DNA from: Pelagomonas calceolata
Taxonomy: Eukaryota
Direction of reading: 5' to 3'
DNA: 64,000 nt
Assembly (NCBI GenBank): GCA_918797485.1
Contig: CAKKNE010000006.1
Coordinates: 372,001-436,000, forward strand
The position numbers and the translations under genes were made by a program. Every line of letters begins with the position of its first letter. Position 1 is the stretch's first letter. The notes under the pieces were generated by a model. It saw only the letters and a list, made by a program, of their open reading frames with translations. It did not search any database and was not told where the DNA came from. Below, in pieces: positions 13,699-28,658 of this stretch.

Positions 13699-14997
13699 CT
13701 ACACGACGGAGAAGCGCCGCCGCGCCCGGCGAAACACGTGCGCGATGGAGTCGTGCTCGACGCTCACGACGCGGCTCGCCGCGCGCCGCGCGCTCGCCCG
13801 CCGCATCCGCGAGCGCACGACCTGCACGGCCCGGAAGCCGCACTGCGCCAACCTCAGCCAGCGGACGCAGCGCAACGCGACCAACAGACGAATCAGCCGC
13901 AGGATCCGCGCGATGAGCGTCGGCAGGTCGGGCAGCCAACTGGCCAAATAAGCGTCCACAACGCCGCCGATGCGTGGGGCCGCCTCGCGGAGCCGTCTCT
14001 TCAGGTCGAATGCCTTCAAAATCCGTCGCGCGATCTGGAGGGGTCCCGGCGGTGGGGGCTTGCACTGCGCCCACCTGTGTGGAAATCAACCAGTGTGTCG
14101 GACGAACGCGCCGTAAAATGTTGATTTCCACACAGGCGCCCACCACGTGTCGTAGGAGCCGACGGCGCACCTCCTCGGTGCCGGCACCGCCGCCAGCGCG
14201 CTCGGGCCCAGCGCGCCCAGGACGTCCGGCAGGAGCCAGCCCGCGGCGTAGTGCCTCATAATGCGGCCGCGTCGTAAGATCAAAGTACCTCCTTTATCCA
14301 CATAACCCGTGTGCAGGTTCAGCGCCGCGTCAGCGACGAAGAAGGCCGACCCCATCACATTAACGTTCGGGTTGAGCACCATCGCGACGGCGACGAGCGC
14401 AGCACAAAAATCCCAGAGGCGCCGCGGGCCCGAGTTCGGATGAATCACGCCCGCGTCGCGGCTCGTCTGGCGCATGAACGTGACCCGTTCTCGTAGCGGG
14501 AGGGCCCGCGACGCGCGCTCCGCGCCATCCGCGAGCGCGTCGAGCGACCGCCGCGAGGTGCGTCGTCGTAATGGCGGCTCGGAGAGGGGCGCGTGCGTCG
14601 GCGGCGACTTGATTGTCGGTGTGGCGGGCAGGGACCGCGGTGAGACCGGCGGTACCGTCGCTGCTGATGGTGACGTCGGCGGCGATGCGGGATTCGCGTC
14701 GAACGTCTTCTCGGCGGACCCGAGGGCCTTGCGGCGGCGGCGTTTCCGCCGCGCTCGCACCGTTACATTGGGTGAGGGCGTGCAGACGTCGTCGTCGGCG
14801 TCCAGCAGGGACTGGTGCGGTCGCAGTGGTGACTGGCGCTGCCGCGGCGGCGTCCTTGCGACGGCGGTCGGCGCTGCCGCGGCGCATGCCTGCTTCTTGG
14901 CCTCCCCGATCTCAGCGCAGTTCTCCGCGCGCGACGGGCCCAGGGGCGCGCGCGGCGCAGGAGCCGGCTGTGGCAGCTCTTCGCAACTGGCGCGCAT
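13699..14997 (-). CDS. EAG/CNG-channel-like voltage-sensor (S1-S4) protein without pore; intron 14075-14143
   Basis: VIHPNS..RRLWD, FFVADAALNLHTGYVD, RHYAAGWLLPDVLG, then after splicing an S4-like RILRLIRLLVALRCVRWLRL and a stop at 13699. Confidence 0.65.
14075..14143 (-). mobile_element. Minimal 61-bp introner plus 8-bp TSD
   Basis: Perfect 15-bp TIRs (14075-14089, 14121-14135); perfect TSD GCGCCCAC at 14067-14074 and 14136-14143. Confidence 0.95.
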
Positions 14998-15238: not shown

Positions 15239-16099
15239 ATGGCCGAGCGCACGTCGCCCGCGACCCTCCGGTCGCAGCCGGACTACGAGGCGTCTCCCAC
15301 ATATCTGACGTCGGCGCTCCCGCCCCGCGAGGGCCAACGACCGCGGACGGAGTCGTGCCTGCCCCACGCGCAAATGGAAGCCGAGAGCCCGGACGCAATT
15401 TTCGAGGCGCTCACCGCGGCAGCTTCCGCGAGCCTGGGCGATGGCGTGGTGGAGGGCCCTACGACGGTGTCGGTGCCATCCACGTGGCCAGCGTACCACC
15501 TTTGCAGGCCGTGCGGCGACGCCATGCCGCGCGAGGCGTGCATGACGCCGGGCGGCCCGGCCTGTGGTCTTGAGCTGTGTGGAAATCAACCAGTGCGTCG
15601 GGTGCACCGACAATTCTTCACTAAGTCATTTCCCGGCGATGATGCTGCCGTGCTGGCTCCATGGAGCGGCGAGGAACCGGCATCGCCACGCCATCGAGCA
15701 GGCGTCGCGTCGATGGCGTGGGGGACGACGCGACGATTCAGCACGAACGCGCCGTGAAATTTTGATTTCCACATAGGTCTAGAGTTTGCCCACGTGCACG
15801 CCCGATATATCCCGGGCGACCATCCGACCGCGGTCCAGGCCAAAGCCCGAGGTCTGCCATGGCAGGCGTACCAGGGCGGCGGTCAGGGCTCGATGCACCT
15901 GTGCCTCACCCTGCGAGACGCGGCGGCCGTCCTGGACGCGGGCTGGGGCGAGCTGCACCTGCTCGCCGGAAGGACCATGGGGCCGGGCGCAAAGGTGCCG
16001 CGCGGACTCGTACTCGTCTATGCGCCGCGCACGGCCGAGGAGGTCTCGACGGTGGTGCGGATCCTGGGGGCGTCGCATGCGTTTGCCCGATCGGCGTGA
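15239..16099 (+). CDS. Luciferase-domain (fungal Luz-like / DUF5519-like) protein; intron 15567-15776
   Basis: Spliced EFAHVH..GSMHLCL...DAAAVLDAGWGELHLLAG..VLVYAPRTAEEV..V..IL. Confidence 0.7.
15567..15776 (+). mobile_element. 210-nt introner (longest copy in the window)
   Basis: TIRs CTGTGTGGAAATCAA (15575) / TTGATTTCCACATAG (ends 15776); TSD GTCTTGAG vs GTCTAGAG; internal 12-bp hairpin 15686-15721. Confidence 0.95.
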
Positions 16100-16119: not shown

Positions 16120-19100
16120 TTATCCAACTAACTGGATTGGCCCCTCAAACGTACTGGAGCTCTGCGTAAGATAAATCTCGTCCTTCACGGCCGGCGCCGG
16201 CGCCGGCGCCGGCACGGCGGCGTAGAGCGCCGGCGCCGGCGCCTCGACGAGCGGCGCGGGCACCGGCGCCTCGGCCACGTGGATGCGGTCCACCGAGAGC
16301 GTCGAGCCAGGCGGCGGCGCCGCCGCGTCGACGTAGGCCACGGCCTCGCGCACGGGCGTCAACGTCGCGCTCGGCGAGCGCAGCGTCGTCTCTTCGAGTA
16401 GCTCGGTGATGTGGTCCAAGCGCTGTCTCATGGATTGTTGGCTGCGACTGAGCCGTATCTTCAGCGACGATTCGCGGCGTAGCAGCTCCTTCACGTCGGC
16501 GCGGAGCTCTATGTGGAACTCTCGTAGTTCCGCGGCGAACTCCTTGTCTGGGATATGCGCACCGACGGTCTCGACCGCCGCCGCATCCTTGGACAGCGCC
16601 TCGACGGCCGTCGCTTTGGACTCGCCGGTCGTCTGCACCTGTGTGGAAATCAAATTTACGGCGCATTCGTCCTGAATCGCCGCGTCGACCTCCACGCCAT
16701 CGACGCGACGCCTGCTCGATAGCGTGGTGGTGTCGATTCCTCACCGCTCGACGGAGCCAGCGCGGCCACGTCGTCGCCGAGAAATGACACACTGGTTGAT
16801 ATCCACACAGGTCTGCACTCTCTCGGCCACAAGCCGCTCAATGGCTTGCTCGATCCGGTAAGTTCGCTCGAGGTAAACATTGTCAGTCGCTAGGCGCGAC
16901 GCGTCGCGAAACATCTCGAGCTGAAGCTTGATGTCGCGGTCCAGCTCAGACAACGAATCGACGTGCGACCTAATCGTCCACATGCGCTTGAACCATCCCC
17001 GCTCGCCGAAGGCCCGCACGGCGGCGTGGAATTGACGCAGTAGCTCCAGCAGTTGCCGCATCCGCGCCTCCACGATCTCCTTGCCTTCTACCAGCGACTC
17101 CGCGTTCTTATTCATCAGCGTCACCAGCTCGAGCACCTCCACGACGCGCCGCGCCGCGGTGACGACGTCGTCCGCCTTGTCCGCAAATTCGCTGGCGGAG
17201 CCGAAGAACTCGTTCGCGACCTCGGCGATGTCTCCCACAAACGGCACGAGAGAGCCCGCCGTGAGCAATGTGTTCACCAGAGACATGCCCGACGCCACGA
17301 CCTGGGCGACGTCTTGGTGCTGCTCCAACGCTGCCTCGTTCGCCATCTCCGTCGCTGTGAGCGCCGCGGCGGCACCGGCCTCCGCGGGCGCGACCTTCGT
17401 GCCCTTGTCCTTCCGCGGGGACGCCCGCACGAAGCCGATGCACGCGCTGACGCCCGCGAAGGCGAACACGATGACGACGACGACGATGATAATGATGGTA
17501 ACATTGCTGTCCTCACCGCCGCCGCCGCCGCCGCCTGAGCCCCCGGGACTTGTTGTTGGAGCTGAGGTCGGCTCCGGCGTCCTTGCAACTTCCATGCACA
17601 CGGCTTCGACGGTCATTCCGGCAAAAACGACCTGATTACCCGTTTCTGCGGCTTCCTTATGCATGGCCCTTTCAATCTCGCCGGCCCCCACTGGAATAAA
17701 TGACACGGCGTTCGCTGCGTGCTCCACCGATTCGTAGCGAATCCAGTAGGGGACGTATACGACGTCACCACTCTGAAGACGTCTTTGCCCCGTACCGTTA
17801 CGGCATACGTCATCACTCTGGAGACGTCTTCGGCCAGATGAAAACGTCACGGTGACCCGGTCGGGGTGGACGCCGTAGACGCTGGCGATTGCCGCCACGA
17901 AGACGTCCGCGAGCGCCTCCGCGTCCGCCAGCGAGATGCCCGCGCACGTCAGCGAGCCCTCGAGGAGGCCGTCGGCGGCCGCGGTTAGCGCGCCCGGCGT
18001 CGGTGGGCGCGTACTGGGCGCGGGCGTCGGCCACAAAGTAGGTAGAGGTGTCGGTTGGGGTGATGGGCGCGTGCTGGGCGCAGGCGTCGGCCGGAAAGTA
18101 GGCATAGGTGTCGGAACCGGAGTCGGGCGGAAAGTAGGGCGAGGCGTCGGGCCGGGCGTAGGACTTGGCGTCGGGCGTGCAGTCGGCGCGCAGCCGCCCG
18201 CCACTTGCGTGACGCCGCACGACGTCGACGCGCACGGAGAGTCAACGAACGCGTTGTTCAGGTTCACGCCGTCGTCCACGCACCAGCCGAGGTCCTGGTT
18301 AAAGGCGAAGGCCTCGGCGAACATGAGCTCCATGCTCGTGACGCTGTGGACCGCCCATCCACTGATGTCCTGGTCGAAGGCGTCGGCTTGGTAGAACACC
18401 CCGTACATATCAGTGACGCCGTCAACCGCCCAAAAACCGATGTCCTGGTTAAAGACCGAGGCGCGGGCGAACATAATGCGCATGCTCGTGACGCCTGAGG
18501 TGTCCCAATCACCGAGGTCCTGGTCGAAGGCCGAGGCGGAAAAGAACATCCCGTGCATGCTTGTCACGCTGTGGACCGCCCAATTACCGACGTCTTGGTT
18601 AAAGGCCGAGGCTTCGTAGAACATGGACCTCGTGCTCATGACGTTGTCGACCGCCCAATCACTGAGGTCCTGGTCGAAGGCTGAGGCGCGGGCGAACATG
18701 CACCTCATGCTCGTTATGCTGTCGACTGCCCAACCGCCGATCGGCCGGTTGAACGCCGAGGCGCCTTGAAACATGTTTTGCATGGTTGTGACGCCGGATG
18801 TATCCCACGCGCCGATGTCGTCGTTAAAGGACGCCGCGGCCGTGTTGTAGTACGAGCACTCAGCACCATCGCTGCAAAACAACTCCGACATGTCCGTCAC
18901 CCCGCCAGTCGCCCACGTCGAGATGTGGCCGTATGTCGTCTCTGCGGATGCGCTGTCCGAGAGCCACGCAGCGACGGCTGTTCTAATGTTGCTGTCGGTC
19001 ATGACGTACCCGAGCTTGCGCCGCGTCATGGACGCGTTTGCAGTTCCGAAGGGCCGGGCCGCCGCCGCGAGCTGCGGAAAGGCCAGCAGCACGCCGAGGA

Positions 19101-19302
19101 CCCGCGCGCGCCCCGCGGAGCTGCCGCGCGTCGGCAGCGCCGAGCCGGACAAAAAGGCGCCGACGCCCGTGACCGCAGCAGCAGCACTCTGCGGCGACGA
19201 CCACCAGCCGACGTCCGCGCCGGCGCGGCGCGTCGCCGCCATCGCCGCCAGGACCGCGAGGGAGGCAGCCCAGCCAGCTGTGCAGGGGCAGCGCCGCCTC
19301 AT
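16120..19302 (-). CDS. Type I membrane protein: DUF285 (BspA-like) repeats, PT-rich stalk, TM helix, cytoplasmic MLKL-N-like helical domain; intron 16639-16818
   Basis: 26-aa repeats (WDTSGVT.M..MF..ASAFNQD); PTP.PT repeats; [34 protein letters not shown] domain. Start codon uncertain. Confidence 0.8.
16639..16818 (-). mobile_element. 180-nt introner
   Basis: TIRs at 16639 and ending 16810; perfect TSD GTCTGCAC at 16631-16638 and 16811-16818; interior alignable to the 15575-15776 copy. Confidence 0.95.
18270..18920 (-). repeat. Tandem ~78-bp coding repeats (DUF285)
   Basis: Recurring GTCCTGGTCGAAGGC / GTCCTGGTTAAAG units encoding the 26-aa repeats. Confidence 0.85.
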
Positions 19303-19597
19303 CGTTCTCGTGCGCGGGGTGCAAGATCCAAACGCCGCAGACACTCTCGCGCCGCGTTGCTGCGCCAGCTGCAATGCCAGACTCGCCGGTCAGGAGCACC
19401 AGTGGGGGCGCTCCGGCATGACGTCTTGCCATGGTGCGGGCTTGCCGTGCGCGCGCCGGGCCAGCTCGGAGTTTGTCTGGAGACGGCAGGGACGCTGAAG
19501 GATAGCCTTCCACGGGACTCGGCTCGTAGAACGCAGCACGAGACAACGCGGGACAAGCAACTAGATATAAACGAAACTTTAGATTCGATAACCCGAC

Positions 19598-22291
19598 TCA
19601 CTCGTCCTTCGGGTTGAAGCCCAGGGGAATGCCCAGCGCTCTGAAGAGAGCAACTTGCGCGTTCCACTTTTTCAAATAACCGCCGCCGCCGTCCGGGTTC
19701 GCCGGAGGATAATTAGCAACCGGATGCACGGCGTGGAAGTCCTCCTTGATGCCCACCGTGCCCCTCAGTTCATCATCATCAATATCGCTCCAGTCCCGCG
19801 CGGTGCCGTCGCCGACGATGACCCGATTGTACTCGTTGTCCCCCGTCCACCTTGCAAAATAAGGCTGGCCGCCGTCGTTCTCCAACGCTTTATTGTACCA
19901 GTTGTAGAACTTATATATTAAATCATCACCTTTTCCTGCCTTATTTATTCTGGGAGCACCTAAGTCGTCGATCATGTGCGCCTGGCCCTGCATCACACTG
20001 TAGTCCTCCAGGCCGATGTGGTAGTTCCAGTTGTTCACTAACACCTCTAAGAACTTCGGGACTCCGGGGAACCCCGTAACAGTCGTGAGAATAGGTCCCT
20101 TCGGCAGGTGCTGCCGCAGCAATACTCGTGTCCGCTTCGGCGCAATCGGGACGATGTGGAACTCCTCGTGGAAGCCACTGACGCCGCCGTGCCTTACAAT
20201 ATTCGGCGCGTCAAATCTCACAAGTTTGTTCGGCTTCAGGGCGCCGCGCAGCTTGCCGACGTGGCCCGGTCCTACGTCGTCAGAAAACGCTTTCATCAAT
20301 AAGTTGTCCGTGTTCGACCGCCTCATCCCCAAAGCGGCGATGGGCGGGATCGACCCATCGTGTAAGTGGAAGAGGTGGACGGAGTCGAGGTTGTTCTCGA
20401 CGATGTACTCGAATCCGACCTTGTAATCTAAGACGGTGTCGACGGGGTACGTCGGCGTCGCGTCGGGCACTTTTTGGGGCAGCTTCGACGCGTCGGCCTC
20501 GAGCAGAGGTCCTCGCCACACATAGACAATCCCGTCGACCTCCTCCGCGGCAAATTGCTTCAACGAACAAGCGTTCTTCTTGAGCGTCCCGTCAGGCTTG
20601 AACTGGTCGACGTCAGCCCGGACCCCGTCCTTCCCGAAGGCCCAGCCGTGGTAGAAGCACCGCAAATTCCCGTCATCCCCAACCCTCCCCATGGACATCG
20701 GCGCGGATCGATGCGGACAGGCATCCGCGACGGCGTTTATTTGACCGGAAGCATCCCTGTAAATAACCATCGGTTCTCCAAACAAACGCGTCGCGTAGGG
20801 CGTGTAGCCGAGTTCGTCGAAGTCGTCGCCCTCCTGCCGTTCCAATTGTTTGGAGAAGGCGACGGCGTACCAGGCGTTCTCGAACGTCGGCTTCTTTTGT
20901 AACGCGGCGGCACCATGGGATAAGATCGGTAGGTACGAGACGGTCGTGTCCTGGCGGTCCACGACGAGCTGGTCGTAGATCTGCGAATCTCTCCTAGCAG
21001 CAAAGGCGTAGTGGACCGCGCCGCCCCATCTTGCGCTGTGTTTGAGCAAGTCGAAGTTCGAATCCTCGAAGAAGGCTCTCGCCTCGTGCGTGAAGGGTGA
21101 CGGGAGTAAGGGCTTGAGGTTGTCCGTCAAGACGACTGCACTATCGGGCGACGTCGTCGACGCGAGCAATAAGTCCTGGAACAGCCTTCGCTTGGGGAGG
21201 TCGTCCACATAAAATAGGACAGCTTCCGAGCAGAACAAAGTAGGTCGCTCCTTCGAGAAGCCGGCCGACGTGAGGATATCTAACGGTGTCGCCTTGTCGG
21301 GGTCGCCGGCGTCGTTCAAATCATAAGGTATATAAGAAGGCTTCTTGTAGCTGTCGGAGCCGTGCTCGGCGACCCACGTGTCCCAGAGGCCCGACTTACC
21401 TTTGCAGACGTGGGGCAGGTCGAGCTCGTAGATGTCGCCGTCGATGTCCCTTATTCTTTCAGCGTAGCGCATGGCCCGCGTGTCGAAGCCCGCACCTAGT
21501 AGGACAATTTGGGGCTTTCCTGCGCCACTGTTCTCGACGGCGGCTAAGAACTTGTCGACGGCGGCGTCGATGAACTTCGTTCGACTCGTGACGAATTCGG
21601 CGAAGCGCGCCGCCGGTTTGAGGGCGTCCCACTTGGCGACGTCTCTCGTCAACTTCGGTAACAGATTGTGGGCGACCTTGTCCTCGAGCTCACCCGCATC
21701 ATCGAGCAAAGCGCGGGCCCACAACACTCTAAGGTTCTTGGACGAGTCCTCGATGCCCGACGCGTCGCCGAAGTGCAGCAAATCGAACAAGGCGCCCGTC
21801 ACGGCGTCCGTCGCGTAGCCCAGAGGTGATTGGCTTGCCTCGCCGTCGTCCTGCACCACAGACGCCTCGTCCGCCTCGAAGTCCTCGAAGACCTGGACCA
21901 TGTCGCGCGCGTCCGTGAGGACCTGCGTGGTTCGGGGCGTCGCGGCGATGGCGTGATCGAGCAGTAGTCTCGCTCGCGTCGATGGCGTGGTCGCGGAGCC
22001 TCCCCGCGCCGCGCGCCGGCGCCGCGGCGGCGGCGCGGGCGCGGGCCCGACGTCTACGGCGGGCGCGCGGGCCGTGCGCTTCGACGAAGGTACGGTATGG
22101 TGGTTTCCGGCGCCGGGACGCGCCGGCGCGGCCCGAAGGCTGCTTCTCTTCGTGACCTGTGCCTCGTCGGCGACGGTGGCAGGGTCTTCCGTTGCTACAT
22201 TCAGGCTGACGGCGCGCGGCCGCGGCGCAGGCCTAGCCGGAGCCCAAGCACGCGCCGCCACAGCGAAGGCCAGCACGCCTGCGGCCCGCAT
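19598..22291 (-). CDS. Plastid-targeted fusion: LCM-family SAM carboxyl-methyltransferase + Rieske [2Fe-2S]/mononuclear-Fe oxygenase (CAO/PAO-like); probable in-frame intron 21923-22156
   Basis: Leader MRAAGVLAFAVAARA-WAP; RTKFID..QIVLLGAGFDTR..YELDLP..SEAVLFY; WYAVAFS..LFGEPMVIYRD..DACPHRSAPMSMG..CFYHGWAF; ENNLDSVHLFHLH. Confidence 0.9.
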   Translation of the reverse strand: MRAAGVLAFAVAARAWAPARPAPRPRAVSLNVATEDPATVADEAQVTKRSSLRAAPARPGAGNHHTVPSSKRTARAPAVDVGPAPAPPPRRRRAARGGSATTPSTRARLLLDHAIAATPRTTQVLTDARDMVQVFEDFEADEASVVQDDGEASQSPLGYATDAVTGALFDLLHFGDASGIEDSSKNLRVLWARALLDDAGELEDKVAHNLLPKLTRDVAKWDALKPAARFAEFVTSRTKFIDAAVDKFLAAVENSGAGKPQIVLLGAGFDTRAMRYAERIRDIDGDIYELDLPHVCKGKSGLWDTWVAEHGSDSYKKPSYIPYDLNDAGDPDKATPLDILTSAGFSKERPTLFCSEAVLFYVDDLPKRRLFQDLLLASTTSPDSAVVLTDNLKPLLPSPFTHEARAFFEDSNFDLLKHSARWGGAVHYAFAARRDSQIYDQLVVDRQDTTVSYLPILSHGAAALQKKPTFENAWYAVAFSKQLERQEGDDFDELGYTPYATRLFGEPMVIYRDASGQINAVADACPHRSAPMSMGRVGDDGNLRCFYHGWAFGKDGVRADVDQFKPDGTLKKNACSLKQFAAEEVDGIVYVWRGPLLEADASKLPQKVPDATPTYPVDTVLDYKVGFEYIVENNLDSVHLFHLHDGSIPPIAALGMRRSNTDNLLMKAFSDDVGPGHVGKLRGALKPNKLVRFDAPNIVRHGGVSGFHEEFHIVPIAPKRTRVLLRQHLPKGPILTTVTGFPGVPKFLEVLVNNWNYHIGLEDYSVMQGQAHMIDDLGAPRINKAGKGDDLIYKFYNWYNKALENDGGQPYFARWTGDNEYNRVIVGDGTARDWSDIDDDELRGTVGIKEDFHAVHPVANYPPANPDGGGGYLKKWNAQVALFRALGIPLGFNPKDE

Positions 22292-22717
22292 CTTCGAGCG
22301 TGGAGCGTTGCAGAGGATCACTGGGAGTCAGTTTACAGCAATGGTCTGCCGCGGGGGTCCGTCTTGGCTGCGCAAACAGGAGATTAGATCGAGGATCACC
22401 TCAAAAGCTGCTATGCGATCCTAAAGTTGCTTTTCGTGAAATGTCCTCGCACGGCTCTCAGCGGCTTCACTACGCGTGGCATAATCGCGCAAGACGCCGC
22501 AAAAAAATGTCGGAAAAGGCAAAAAGTATGGGCGTGGTCCAGATCTTCGGCACCCGTCGCGCCACACGCAAGAGCGGTCCATGCGGCGCCGACGGGGCGT
22601 CTGAACGTCTCCGCCGGAGGCCTTTCTCTGAAGTCTAGCGGCGCTCTCAAAGTTGAGTGGGGCAGCAGCGCCATCTCTTGGGCAAGAGAGGGCTCAATTG
22701 AAGCGGACCTAGCCACA

Positions 22718-26465: not shown

Positions 26466-28658
26466 TTAACTTATAGCATCTAGAGCCTTTGATGTTCGCG
26501 CCACGAGCCAGGTCGCCGCGTTGATATCCTTGTTGTAGGAGTTGCGGTTCCAGATTTTTGAGCCTCTCTCCAACTCCGCCGGCGACGCGTCGATGCGCGG
26601 CCAGAGGTACGAGAAGACGAACCGCGCCTTGTCGACGACGGCGACCTCGAATTGCTGTTTAAATGCATCGCCGTCGATGTCGCGTAACGTGGCGAACTCC
26701 GCGAGGTACAGATCGACGAGGGCCCCATCTAACAGCGACCCGTCTTCACTCAACAGTTCGGAGCCGGCCACCGACGCCGTCAGAAAATGTGCGAGGTCGG
26801 TGGCAGCAAGTCCATCGCCCACATACTGAAAATCCAACAGAGCCACGTCGTCTCCTCTGACGAGCACGTTCGCGGCCTTCAGATCGCCGTGAATCAACGT
26901 GCGCCACTCTTCCACATCAGTACAGTCGTCGTGGGCGAAGGGGTGCGCCTCCCGCCCAGCGGCCACGGCCGCGCGCTGGACGCGGCCCCCGATCGATTCA
27001 AGATCGAGGTCCCGCGTCGCCGGCGAGGCCTCGAGCACGCTCCGGAAGTTGTCGAGCAACCGCGGCCACGCGGCCTCGACAGCACTCTCGAACTGCTCGG
27101 CGTTCTGATAGGCGGGTTGCCAGTGGCCGCCGCAGCGCCACTTTTCGTCCGGGCGCGGCCTCCGCGCCGCCTCGGAAAAGTGCGCGTGGAAGCGGGCCAG
27201 CGCCTTCAGCGTCGCGCGCAGGTCGTCTCCCGCGAGCAGGTTGCTCTGCCGGTAGCCGTCGTCGGGCGAGAAATCCCTCAGGAAGAGCAGCGACGCGGCG
27301 TCCAAGGGGTCGTCGGTCGGCGTGTCGACCGTCGCGGACAGCACCGTCGGCACCTGGACGCCAATGGCGGCCAGTCCCTTCGCCGCGTCCGACGAGAGGA
27401 ACGCCGCCTCGACGCGGAAGGATGCGACATCTCTCCGCAACTTCTGCGGCTGCGCCGTCGCCTTCTTCACGGCTGCGGGTAGCTCCCGCATCTTCACGCG
27501 TTTCAGGAACACCGACGTGTCCGCGACGCGCAGGCGGCAACCGGCAGACAAAGCGCCGCGGAAGGCCTCAGCCTCGGGCGCCTGGTAAGTAGACGCTGCC
27601 ACGCCCGCAGCTTCCGCGACCGTTGCGACGGCGAGCGGCGCCCCGGTTAAGTCGCGAGCTATGTCGGCGGCATGGGAAGAACCTCGAATACCGTAGCGCT
27701 CGAGGACCGCCAGGGCGCGGGCGTCGCGCCGCAGCGTCGCGCAGGCGGCGTCGTGGGCCTTGGACGCGCGTGCCGACGACGCGATGACGCCCAGCGTGTT
27801 CCCGACGGCGCCCGTGTAGGACAGCGGGGCGCCGAAGTAGTCCGTGACCCTGCCGCCGGCGGCGAGGATGGCGGCGGAAGGCGCGCAGGTGTCCCAGGCC
27901 GACGTTTTGCAGTGGAGAATTGCCACGTCCGCTTCTCCCTCGGCGACGCTTTTTAGTTTGTTGCCCGCGGCGCCGCGCACCGCGAAGTCCGCGCCCGGGA
28001 AGGCCTCGACGCCTGCCGCCTGGGCCGCGTCGGAGCCGTCGCCCGCGATTACCAGTAGCGTCTCGCTGTCGCGTTTCAGCGCTCGCGGCGCGTCAGAGGG
28101 ACCCACGGACCCGCGAGAAGTAGCGTAAATGACGCGCGGCGGCCCGCCGTCCGCGGGAAACGGCAGGCCGACGGCACCACACACGGGCGCGTCGCCCACG
28201 GCGACGCCGACGAGGCACTGCACGGCGTCGAGGCGCCCCTCGACGAATTCTCTAGTACCATCCAACGGGTCGACGAAAATGCGCGCCTTCGACAAATCCA
28301 CGCTCGTGGTACATTCCCAGTCCAGTAGGGCGTCGTCGAGTGGTTTGTCGAGTTCGTGATCCTCATCGAGCGCGGCCTCGTCCTCCTCGCCGACAATCGT
28401 CAGGCCCGGCCACGCCTTTGAGAGCGCGCCGACGACGGCGGCCTGCGCCGCGAGGTCGGCTGCTGTCAACGCGGATTTCGCGTCGCCTGCTATTTTGAGC
28501 GTCGCGTCGGTGGCGCCGGACTCCTGGACGCGTCGTATGCGGTCGCAGCCCCGCGCCGCCGCATCGATGCAGGTGCTCAGGAGCTTGTGGAGCGGGACGG
28601 TTTGTGGCTGCAGCGATGCGGCCATTGCAACGCAGCAGAGTGCTGCGGCAAGCCGCAT
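26466..28658 (-). CDS. Inositol-monophosphatase/BPNT-family phosphatase fused to choline/ecdysteroid-kinase-like (APH) domain; signal peptide
   Basis: GEE, DPLDGT, WDTCA phosphatase motifs; LIHGDLKAANV and LLDFQYVG kinase motifs. Confidence 0.85.
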   Translation of the reverse strand: MRLAAALCCVAMAASLQPQTVPLHKLLSTCIDAAARGCDRIRRVQESGATDATLKIAGDAKSALTAADLAAQAAVVGALSKAWPGLTIVGEEDEAALDEDHELDKPLDDALLDWECTTSVDLSKARIFVDPLDGTREFVEGRLDAVQCLVGVAVGDAPVCGAVGLPFPADGGPPRVIYATSRGSVGPSDAPRALKRDSETLLVIAGDGSDAAQAAGVEAFPGADFAVRGAAGNKLKSVAEGEADVAILHCKTSAWDTCAPSAAILAAGGRVTDYFGAPLSYTGAVGNTLGVIASSARASKAHDAACATLRRDARALAVLERYGIRGSSHAADIARDLTGAPLAVATVAEAAGVAASTYQAPEAEAFRGALSAGCRLRVADTSVFLKRVKMRELPAAVKKATAQPQKLRRDVASFRVEAAFLSSDAAKGLAAIGVQVPTVLSATVDTPTDDPLDAASLLFLRDFSPDDGYRQSNLLAGDDLRATLKALARFHAHFSEAARRPRPDEKWRCGGHWQPAYQNAEQFESAVEAAWPRLLDNFRSVLEASPATRDLDLESIGGRVQRAAVAAGREAHPFAHDDCTDVEEWRTLIHGDLKAANVLVRGDDVALLDFQYVGDGLAATDLAHFLTASVAGSELLSEDGSLLDGALVDLYLAEFATLRDIDGDAFKQQFEVAVVDKARFVFSYLWPRIDASPAELERGSKIWNRNSYNKDINAATWLVARTSKALDAIS

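What the first reader, a model, noticed from the sequence alone, without database searches (positions are those of the whole stretch)
19598..22291. Methyltransferase-Rieske oxygenase fusion: candidate chlorophyll c3 synthase
Seen: one uninterrupted frame carrying a bipartite plastid-type leader, an LCM-family SAM carboxyl-methyltransferase (LGAGFDTR near 21480-21503), a Rieske cluster (CPH near 20719, CFYHGW near 20650) and a mononuclear-Fe motif ENNLDSVHLFHLH (near 20360-20398) as in the CAO/PAO/TIC55 family. Established: CAO oxidises the C7 methyl of chlorophyllide; chlorophyll c3 differs from c2 by a C7 methoxycarbonyl; pelagophytes make c3 and no chlorophyll b; LCM enzymes form carboxyl methyl esters. 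Inference: the oxygenase takes C7-CH3 to COOH and the fused domain methylates it, supplying both steps in one polypeptide. I know of no assigned c3 enzyme, but cannot check recent literature.
Basis: partly seen in the sequence, partly recalled or inferred. Interest (0 to 1): 0.92.

Follow-up and report, generated by a model that had tools for sequence, protein, structure and literature searches.

The report
Candidate chlorophyll c3 synthase
This expressed algal gene joins a methyl-ester-forming enzyme to an iron-sulfur oxygenase in one protein with a predicted chloroplast address, and it likely makes chlorophyll c3, a widespread ocean pigment whose enzyme reviews still list as unidentified.

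Summary
The fusion is real. One spliced, poly(A) mRNA encodes an 830-aa protein, identical to a Pelagomonas calceolata record: plastid-type leader, LCM carboxyl methyltransferase, Rieske cluster, mononuclear-Fe domain. The frame is not uninterrupted: a 201-nt in-frame GC-AG intron is spliced out. Relatives occur in pelagophytes, bolidophytes, a dictyochophyte, many diatoms and haptophytes, the classes known for chlorophyll c3. SAM and Fe ligands are almost invariant. Haptophytes split it into a methyltransferase+Fe subunit without Rieske ligands and a Rieske-only subunit, as Micromonas splits CAO. It is not a CAO descendant (AU p=0.037). Five of six named carriers with pigment data that I read make c3; Ditylum brightwellii was reported without it. 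Absence from c1/c2-only algae could not be tested properly, and no green-algal homologue was seen. Best reading: chlorophyll c3 synthase, about 0.65, untested biochemically. The scan flagged the same family once before, in a diatom genome, with mixed evidence.

The parts
22124..22291 (-). Exon 1 (56 codons): signal peptide and transit-peptide-like leader
   Evidence: RNA reads and contigs; spliced length equals P0282
22247..22291 (-). Predicted signal peptide, residues 1-15, followed by W16 (ASAFAP-type junction ARA|WAP)
   Evidence: sequence; junction rule met in 35 of 68 full-length relatives vs 3.5 +/- 1.8 in shuffles
21923..22123 (-). 201-nt in-frame GC-AG intron of introner length
   Evidence: joint 21921/22123 with 2 shared letters in 4 of 4 runs; again in X22 and X23; ends read; about 210 bp is the introner length peak in this species (PMC9481584)
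19598..21922 (-). Exon 2 (774 codons and stop): all catalytic domains
20987..21751 (-). LCM-family SAM-dependent carboxyl methyltransferase domain
   Evidence: Pfam PF04072; fold match to LCMT1 Z 19.0 and TYW4 Z 18.9; places
21476..21499 (-). SAM-binding motif I, LGAGFDTR
   Evidence: G, G, D, R in 91 of 91 rows
20513..20887 (-). Rieske [2Fe-2S] domain; ligands C458, H460 (20711-20719), C478, H481 (20648-20659), mature numbering
   Evidence: Pfam PF00355
19868..20467 (-). Mononuclear-Fe catalytic domain
   Evidence: fold match to dicamba monooxygenase Z 27.6, rmsd 3.2, 304 aligned over Rieske plus catalytic part
20360..20398 (-). ENNLDSVHLFHLH: bridging D569, Fe ligands H572 and H577
   Evidence: 91 of 91 rows each
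19991..20014 (-). GLEDYSVM: D696, the likely third Fe ligand (role inferred from Rieske-oxygenase architecture)
   Evidence: D in 90 of 91 rows; place
19562..22396 (-). Transcribed unit, poly(A) at 19562
   Evidence: tables 6-8

Best explanation
The gene encodes a spliced, well-expressed methyltransferase-Rieske oxygenase fusion that is predicted to enter the plastid and likely makes chlorophyll c3 by oxidising the C7 methyl group to a carboxyl and then methylating it. Shown: one mRNA, domain order, intact SAM, Rieske and Fe ligands, distribution, and the complementary split in haptophytes. Inferred: plastid import; electrons from ferredoxin pass through the Rieske cluster of one subunit to the mononuclear Fe of its neighbour; three O2-dependent oxidations take C7-CH3 via CH2OH and CHO to COOH on chlorophyll c2 or divinyl-protochlorophyllide; the LCM domain adds the SAM methyl to give C7-COOCH3. 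In haptophytes a Rieske-only subunit would feed the Fe site of the methyltransferase-bearing subunit.
For: [quoted passage not shown] The nearest methyltransferase folds are the carboxyl methyl-ester formers LCMT1 and TYW4 (Z 19.0, 18.9; generic methyltransferases <=13.5). Both sites look active: eight SAM-pocket residues in 91 of 91 rows, Fe ligands in 91 of 91 and 90 of 91, Rieske ligands in 65 of 65 rows that hold the domain (rows chosen as near full length with LCM). Plastid-type junction in 35 of 68 vs shuffle maximum 11. Named carriers are pelagophytes, Triparma, Florenciella, five diatoms and three haptophyte genera. Five of six with pigment data that I read make c3: P. calceolata, Proboscia alata, Bolidomonas/Triparma pacifica, E. 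huxleyi, Phaeocystis (genus level); Florenciellales are listed with c3 at order level. The methyltransferase stays tied to the Fe site, not the Rieske domain, when the gene splits: 26 of 91 rows LCM+Fe without Rieske; 45 of 47 Rieske-only rows without the Fe motif and 0 of 47 with the SAM motif; both sit in one haptophyte clade, support 98. The chlorophyll C7 oxygenase CAO is split the same way in Mamiellophyceae (bioRxiv 2025.02.10.637544 passages). Expression: 6,824 of 12.9 M and 10,582 of 11.1 M reads, the strongest unique signal in 20 kb (raw runs are one sample).
Against: Ditylum brightwellii carries an intact fusion (P0044) but had 0 c3 at both light levels in PMC2639444 Table II (the strain may differ from the sequenced one). 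The oxygenase is not close to CAO: 40 of 42 other Rieske oxygenases scored above the best CAO-motif protein (those 42 were themselves top hits), and family plus CAO as one clade is rejected at p-AU 0.037, which is marginal. So nothing in the phylogeny ties it to tetrapyrroles. Micromonas and Ostreococcus make 7-methoxycarbonyl divinyl-protochlorophyllide, yet no named or separate green-algal branch appeared. No named Pseudo-nitzschia, Rhizosolenia or Karenia hit was seen, though these make c3. The diatom-bolidophyte clade has 69 rows and the Thalassiosira clade 13, many for a pigment found in a minority of cultured diatoms. No pigment data seen for 6 named carriers (Chrysophaeum, Corethron, two Thalassiosira, two Triparma). 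CAO stops at the aldehyde.
Confidence: 0.65

Rival explanations
1. Same chemistry, different substrate: it oxidises and methyl-esterifies another plastid small molecule (a lipid, quinone, carotenoid derivative or catabolite) in these lineages.
For: No phylogenetic link to CAO; nearest relatives are unnamed oxygenases without LCM; Ditylum has the gene and no reported c3; broad presence in diatoms.
Against: The named classes match the c3 classes, including bolidophytes and diatoms. I recall no other methyl-ester metabolite shared by just these lineages; the 19'-acyloxyfucoxanthins need an acyltransferase, not a methyltransferase (recalled).
Confidence: 0.17
2. It belongs to the c3 route but is not sufficient: it stops at the alcohol or aldehyde, a separate dehydrogenase makes the acid, and the LCM domain then methylates it.
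For: CAO performs only two oxygenations (PMC9615114 passages). A missing partner would explain a gene-positive, c3-negative Ditylum.
Against: The stable fusion of methyltransferase and Fe site suggests direct hand-over. The Rieske enzyme SdmA, the best Rieske NCBIfam hit though far below cut-off (64.8 of 600 bits), is recalled to take a methyl to a carboxylate alone.
Confidence: 0.1
3. A chlorophyll-breakdown enzyme: PAO-like ring opening followed by methylation of a catabolite carboxyl.
For: Same broad oxygenase fold class as PAO; predicted plastid location.
Against: No PF08417 match; PaO-domain algal proteins P0118, P0119, P0424 and P0438 lie in a different clade; patchy, c3-like distribution.
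Confidence: 0.06
4. A protein C-terminal leucine methyltransferase like LCMT1, with the oxygenase part as a redox sensor or passenger.
For: Best sequence match of the domain in PDB is LCMT1 (E=1.8e-10).
Against: Only 16% identity to LCMT1; the Fe triad is fully conserved; the known target PP2A is cytosolic (recalled).
Confidence: 0.02

Closest known systems
Chlorophyllide a oxygenase (CAO), including the two-gene form of Micromonas
   Same: Rieske plus mononuclear-Fe oxygenase in the plastid; proposed attack on the chlorophyll C7 methyl; split into Rieske-only and Fe-only subunits in some lineages.
   Different: Separate clade; catalytic-domain profile gives CAO-motif proteins only 4-19 bits; fused methyltransferase; would need a third oxidation and a porphyrin rather than a chlorin substrate.
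PAO / TIC55 / PTC52 plastid Rieske oxygenases (PF08417)
   Same: Rieske domain followed by a D-x2-H-x4-H iron motif; plastid leader.
   Different: No PF08417 match; PaO-domain proteins form another clade.
Dicamba monooxygenase DdmC and related single-subunit Rieske oxygenases
   Same: Best fold match, Z 27.6, rmsd 3.2, 304 aligned; Foldseek E=1.4e-17.
   Different: 19% identity; bacterial O-demethylase, no methyltransferase.
LCM methyltransferases: LCMT1/PPM1, TYW4, mycobacterial Rv0731c/ML2640 (TIGR00027)
   Same: PF04072 above cut-off, fold Z 17.7-19.0, SAM motifs intact.
   Different: 14-23% identity; TIGR00027 below cut-off (72.1 of 93.55); fused to an oxygenase and predicted plastid-targeted. 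Small-molecule acid methylation by LCM-type enzymes (TcmP, FUS9) is recalled, from no call.
CHLC chlorophyll c synthase
   Same: Same pathway if the reading holds; makes c1 and c2.
   Different: A 2-oxoglutarate dioxygenase acting on the C17 side chain; unrelated enzyme class.

Membership tests
Rieske non-heme iron oxygenase | C-x-H...C-x2-H Rieske ligands | tested here: met
   C458, H460, C478, H481; 65 of 65 rows with the domain
Rieske non-heme iron oxygenase | 2-His-1-carboxylate Fe site with bridging Asp | tested here: met
   D569, H572, H577 in 91 of 91, D696 in 90 of 91; fold match
LCM carboxyl methyltransferase | PF04072 domain with intact SAM motifs and LCMT1-like fold | tested here: met
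   70.4 bits vs cut-off 22.3; Z 19.0
LCM carboxyl methyltransferase | Methyl-ester formation on a carboxyl group | not testable with these tools
   needs an assay
CAO | Falls in or next to the CAO clade | tested here: not met
   family 100 and CAO 100 as separate clades, family joins unnamed proteins at 98-99; p-AU 0.037, marginal. CAO rows were identified by a recalled motif and by Prochlorothrix record titles
CAO | Oxidises the chlorophyll C7 methyl | not testable with these tools
   needs an assay
PAO/TIC55/PTC52 | PF08417 PaO domain | tested here: not met
   no match at E<=0.1, while P0118, P0424 and P0438 pass the cut-off
Complex-plastid stromal protein | Signal peptide plus ASAFAP-type junction | tested here: met
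   ARA|WAP; 35 of 68 relatives vs 3.5 +/- 1.8 shuffled, own rule; localisation itself untested
Chlorophyll c3 synthase (hypothetical) | Present in c3 producers | tested here: inconclusive
   5 of 6 named carriers with data make c3; no named hit for Pseudo-nitzschia, Rhizosolenia, Karenia; most rows carry no organism (11 of 118)
Chlorophyll c3 synthase (hypothetical) | Absent from c1/c2-only algae | tested here: inconclusive
   no named hit from Phaeodactylum, T. pseudonana, Ectocarpus, Nannochloropsis, Isochrysis or Pavlovales, but names are sparse; Ditylum is a reported exception

The most novel reading that the evidence does not exclude
This is the missing chlorophyll c3 synthase: a Rieske oxygenase recruited independently of CAO that takes the C7 methyl to a carboxyl and, fused to an LCM methyltransferase, caps it as the methyl ester; haptophytes then split it between the two metal sites, converging on the Micromonas two-gene CAO.
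Probability: 0.6. Interest if true: 0.93.

Novelty: new variant of a known kind. Interest (0 to 1): 0.85.

Why it matters
Chlorophyll c3 is a blue-light antenna pigment and a standard marker for Phaeocystis and other prymnesiophytes, and it is the main c-type chlorophyll still without an enzyme. One named gene makes the question directly testable by a knockout or by expression in a c1/c2-only alga. If right, it gives a DNA marker for c3 producers in ocean metagenomes, a second, independent origin of chlorophyll C7 oxidation, and a tool for adding a new antenna pigment to other phototrophs.

Tried and rejected
No whole genome was held, so copy number and CHLC or PAO paralogues in this organism were not checked. 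ESM Atlas gave no usable hit for exon 2 or P0282. phmmer of the LCM part alone found nothing in PDB; the profile did. The first CAO pattern found 0 genomes; a shorter one found 9. The complex prediction for the Phaeocystis pair P0161 and P0540 gave no verdict, it was not folded, so binding of the haptophyte subunits is open. The careful tree did not finish; one search is the quick tree, and one search is FastTree with long-branch warnings. Rejected: a chance read-through of two genes (one mRNA; 81 of 182 family rows hold all three parts); residues 57-123 of the ORF as protein (intron); CAO descent; the N-terminus of P0117 as a decayed LCM (0 bits). Literature: searches found no paper assigning a c3 enzyme or describing this fusion (0 papers); some searches sought pigment data, another the split CAO. 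Subscription journals are not covered. Neeley 2022, Kunugi 2013 and Jinkerson 2024 were not held under the ids tried. PMC11422499, PMC6438636, PMC9546453 and bioRxiv 2026.10.27.762293 (89) gave nothing useful; the one supplement of PMC11422499 was listed, not opened. bioRxiv supplements were not seen and may hold expression data for this gene.

Full report
Observation. The minus-strand frame 19598-22291 is open for 897 codons and matches Pfam LCM (E=2.4e-19) and Rieske (E=1.2e-17), nothing else. RNA shows one correction: 21923-22123 is a 201-nt GC-AG intron that happens to be in frame, skipped in 4 of 4 runs and in two more raw runs. Assembled transcripts run across both domains to a poly(A) end. 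The spliced product is 830 aa and identical to a Pelagomonas calceolata record. The gene draws 6,824 of 12.9 million and 10,582 of 11.1 million reads and is the strongest unique signal between 12,000 and 31,900; the four raw runs come from one sample.

Anatomy. AlphaFold2 on a 91-row alignment gives pLDDT 86.5 and pTM 0.85. Residues 58-312 of exon 2 match LCMT1, TYW4 and Rv0731c (Z 19.0, 18.9, 18.5; other methyltransferases 13.5 or less) and 345-686 match dicamba monooxygenase (Z 27.6). In that alignment, whose rows I chose as near full length with an LCM domain, eight SAM-pocket residues, the bridging Asp and both Fe histidines are in 91 of 91 rows and the likely third ligand in 90 of 91. An ASAFAP-type junction is in the query and 35 of 68 full-length rows, against 3.5 +/- 1.8 in 200 shuffles (my own rule).

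Family. The first search gave 118 hits, 116 of them family members at 36-97% identity. Organisms are named for few rows: Pelagomonas, Aureococcus, Chrysophaeum, three Triparma, Florenciella, Proboscia alata, Corethron hystrix, Ditylum brightwellii, two Thalassiosira, Phaeocystis (antarctica, cordata and one truncated name), Emiliania huxleyi and Prymnesium parvum. A profile search of 1.84 billion representatives showed no further branch among its best 150, and a 191-row tree places all family rows but one identical pair in clades anchored by these names. Of 306 representatives, 182 scored 100 bits or more on the catalytic part: 81 hold all three parts, 27 LCM and Fe without Rieske, 20 Rieske alone, 16 Rieske and Fe without LCM (14 look like partial calls, 2 lie in the haptophyte Rieske clade), 38 are short pieces.

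The haptophyte split. One haptophyte clade (support 98) holds an unsplit form (P0060), a subunit with LCM and the Fe site whose Rieske ligands are deleted, and a subunit with Rieske ligands, no LCM and an eroded Fe motif. Phaeocystis has both kinds; for E. huxleyi and Prymnesium only the Rieske subunit was named. This mirrors the two-gene CAO of Mamiellophyceae, where both products are needed (bioRxiv 2025.02.10.637544, passages). That the two haptophyte subunits bind is inferred. Sharing between pelagophytes, dictyochophytes and haptophytes is typical of plastid proteins (PMC5462543, passages).

Relation to CAO. A recalled CAO motif retrieved loci from Prochlorothrix, Prochloron and metagenomes; 17 of 129 had a Rieske motif and 300 aa or more. 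They scored 78-118 bits on the family profile, below 40 of 42 other oxygenases, formed their own clade, and were rejected as sisters of the family at p-AU 0.037. The nearest relatives are unnamed oxygenases without LCM. The enzyme may work like CAO but is not one.

Pigments and literature (all read as passages). c3 is 7-methoxycarbonyl c2; its enzyme was unidentified in 2024 and a CAO-like step plus esterification was expected (PMC11879082); a June 2026 review treats synthesis of c1 and c2 only in the passages seen (PMC13297055). c3 is reported for P. calceolata (bioRxiv 2026.09.29.755320), Proboscia alata (PMC6590143), Bolidomonas pacifica and the order Florenciellales (PMC12696874), E. huxleyi and Phaeocystis (PMC2639444). 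The same paper gives 0 c3 for Ditylum brightwellii: 5 of 6. c3 in Prymnesium and Aureococcus is recalled; the table does not list it for the pelagophyte row. In one survey c1 was present in 88% of diatom isolates, c3 usually replacing it in the rest, with traces in five more species (PMC4584358), so gene-positive, pigment-poor strains are possible but this rescue is untested. Searches found no assignment in the open library; subscription journals were not covered.

Mechanism and verdict. Most likely the Fe site oxidises C7-CH3 three times, with electrons from ferredoxin through the Rieske cluster, and the attached LCM domain methylates the acid (0.65). Every chemical step is inferred. Rivals: another plastid substrate (0.17), a c3 step needing a dehydrogenase (0.10), chlorophyll breakdown (0.06), protein methylation (0.02). 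The weak points are Ditylum, the untested absences, the lack of a green-algal homologue and the lack of kinship to CAO. The finding is real, names a single gene for a long-open step, and is easy to test.

Noticed in passing
L009:1501-1527: A Bacteroidota record (Putridiphycobacter MAG chromosome) holds a Rieske protein with the CAO motif that nests among eukaryote-like CAO rows: gene transfer or a binning error.
   Followed up: partly
L001, L003: A Pseudanabaenales MAG and a Leptolyngbyaceae MAG carry CAO-clade genes: possible unrecorded chlorophyll b cyanobacteria.
   Followed up: no
L010-L129: 107 of 129 frames with the CAO motif show no Rieske ligands, many of them 420-560 residues long; likely the Fe-only subunit of two-gene CAO, others cut by introns or locus ends.
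   Followed up: no
proteins P0370, P0372, P0392, P0400, P0422, P0377, P0382: Unnamed Rieske oxygenases without LCM form the sister group of the family (support 98-99); their hosts would point to the origin of the oxygenase.
   Followed up: partly
proteins P0015-P0026 clade: The Thalassiosira members form a clade apart from the other diatoms and Triparma: hidden paralogy or a separate transfer.
   Followed up: no
window 14070-14140, 15570-15780, 16650-16790: Many reads with mismatches and loose ends pile up here: a dispersed, transcribed repeat family; spliced joints at 15565/15776 and 16630/16811.
   Followed up: no
window 26466-28658 (-): A 730-aa frame fuses an inositol monophosphatase-family domain to an EcKL/APH kinase-like domain and has a leader that looks plastid-type by eye.
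   Followed up: no
window 16741-19302 (-): DUF285 repeat protein with a Pro/Thr-rich stalk and a hydrophobic segment, directly downstream of the gene; no sign of a link.
   Followed up: no
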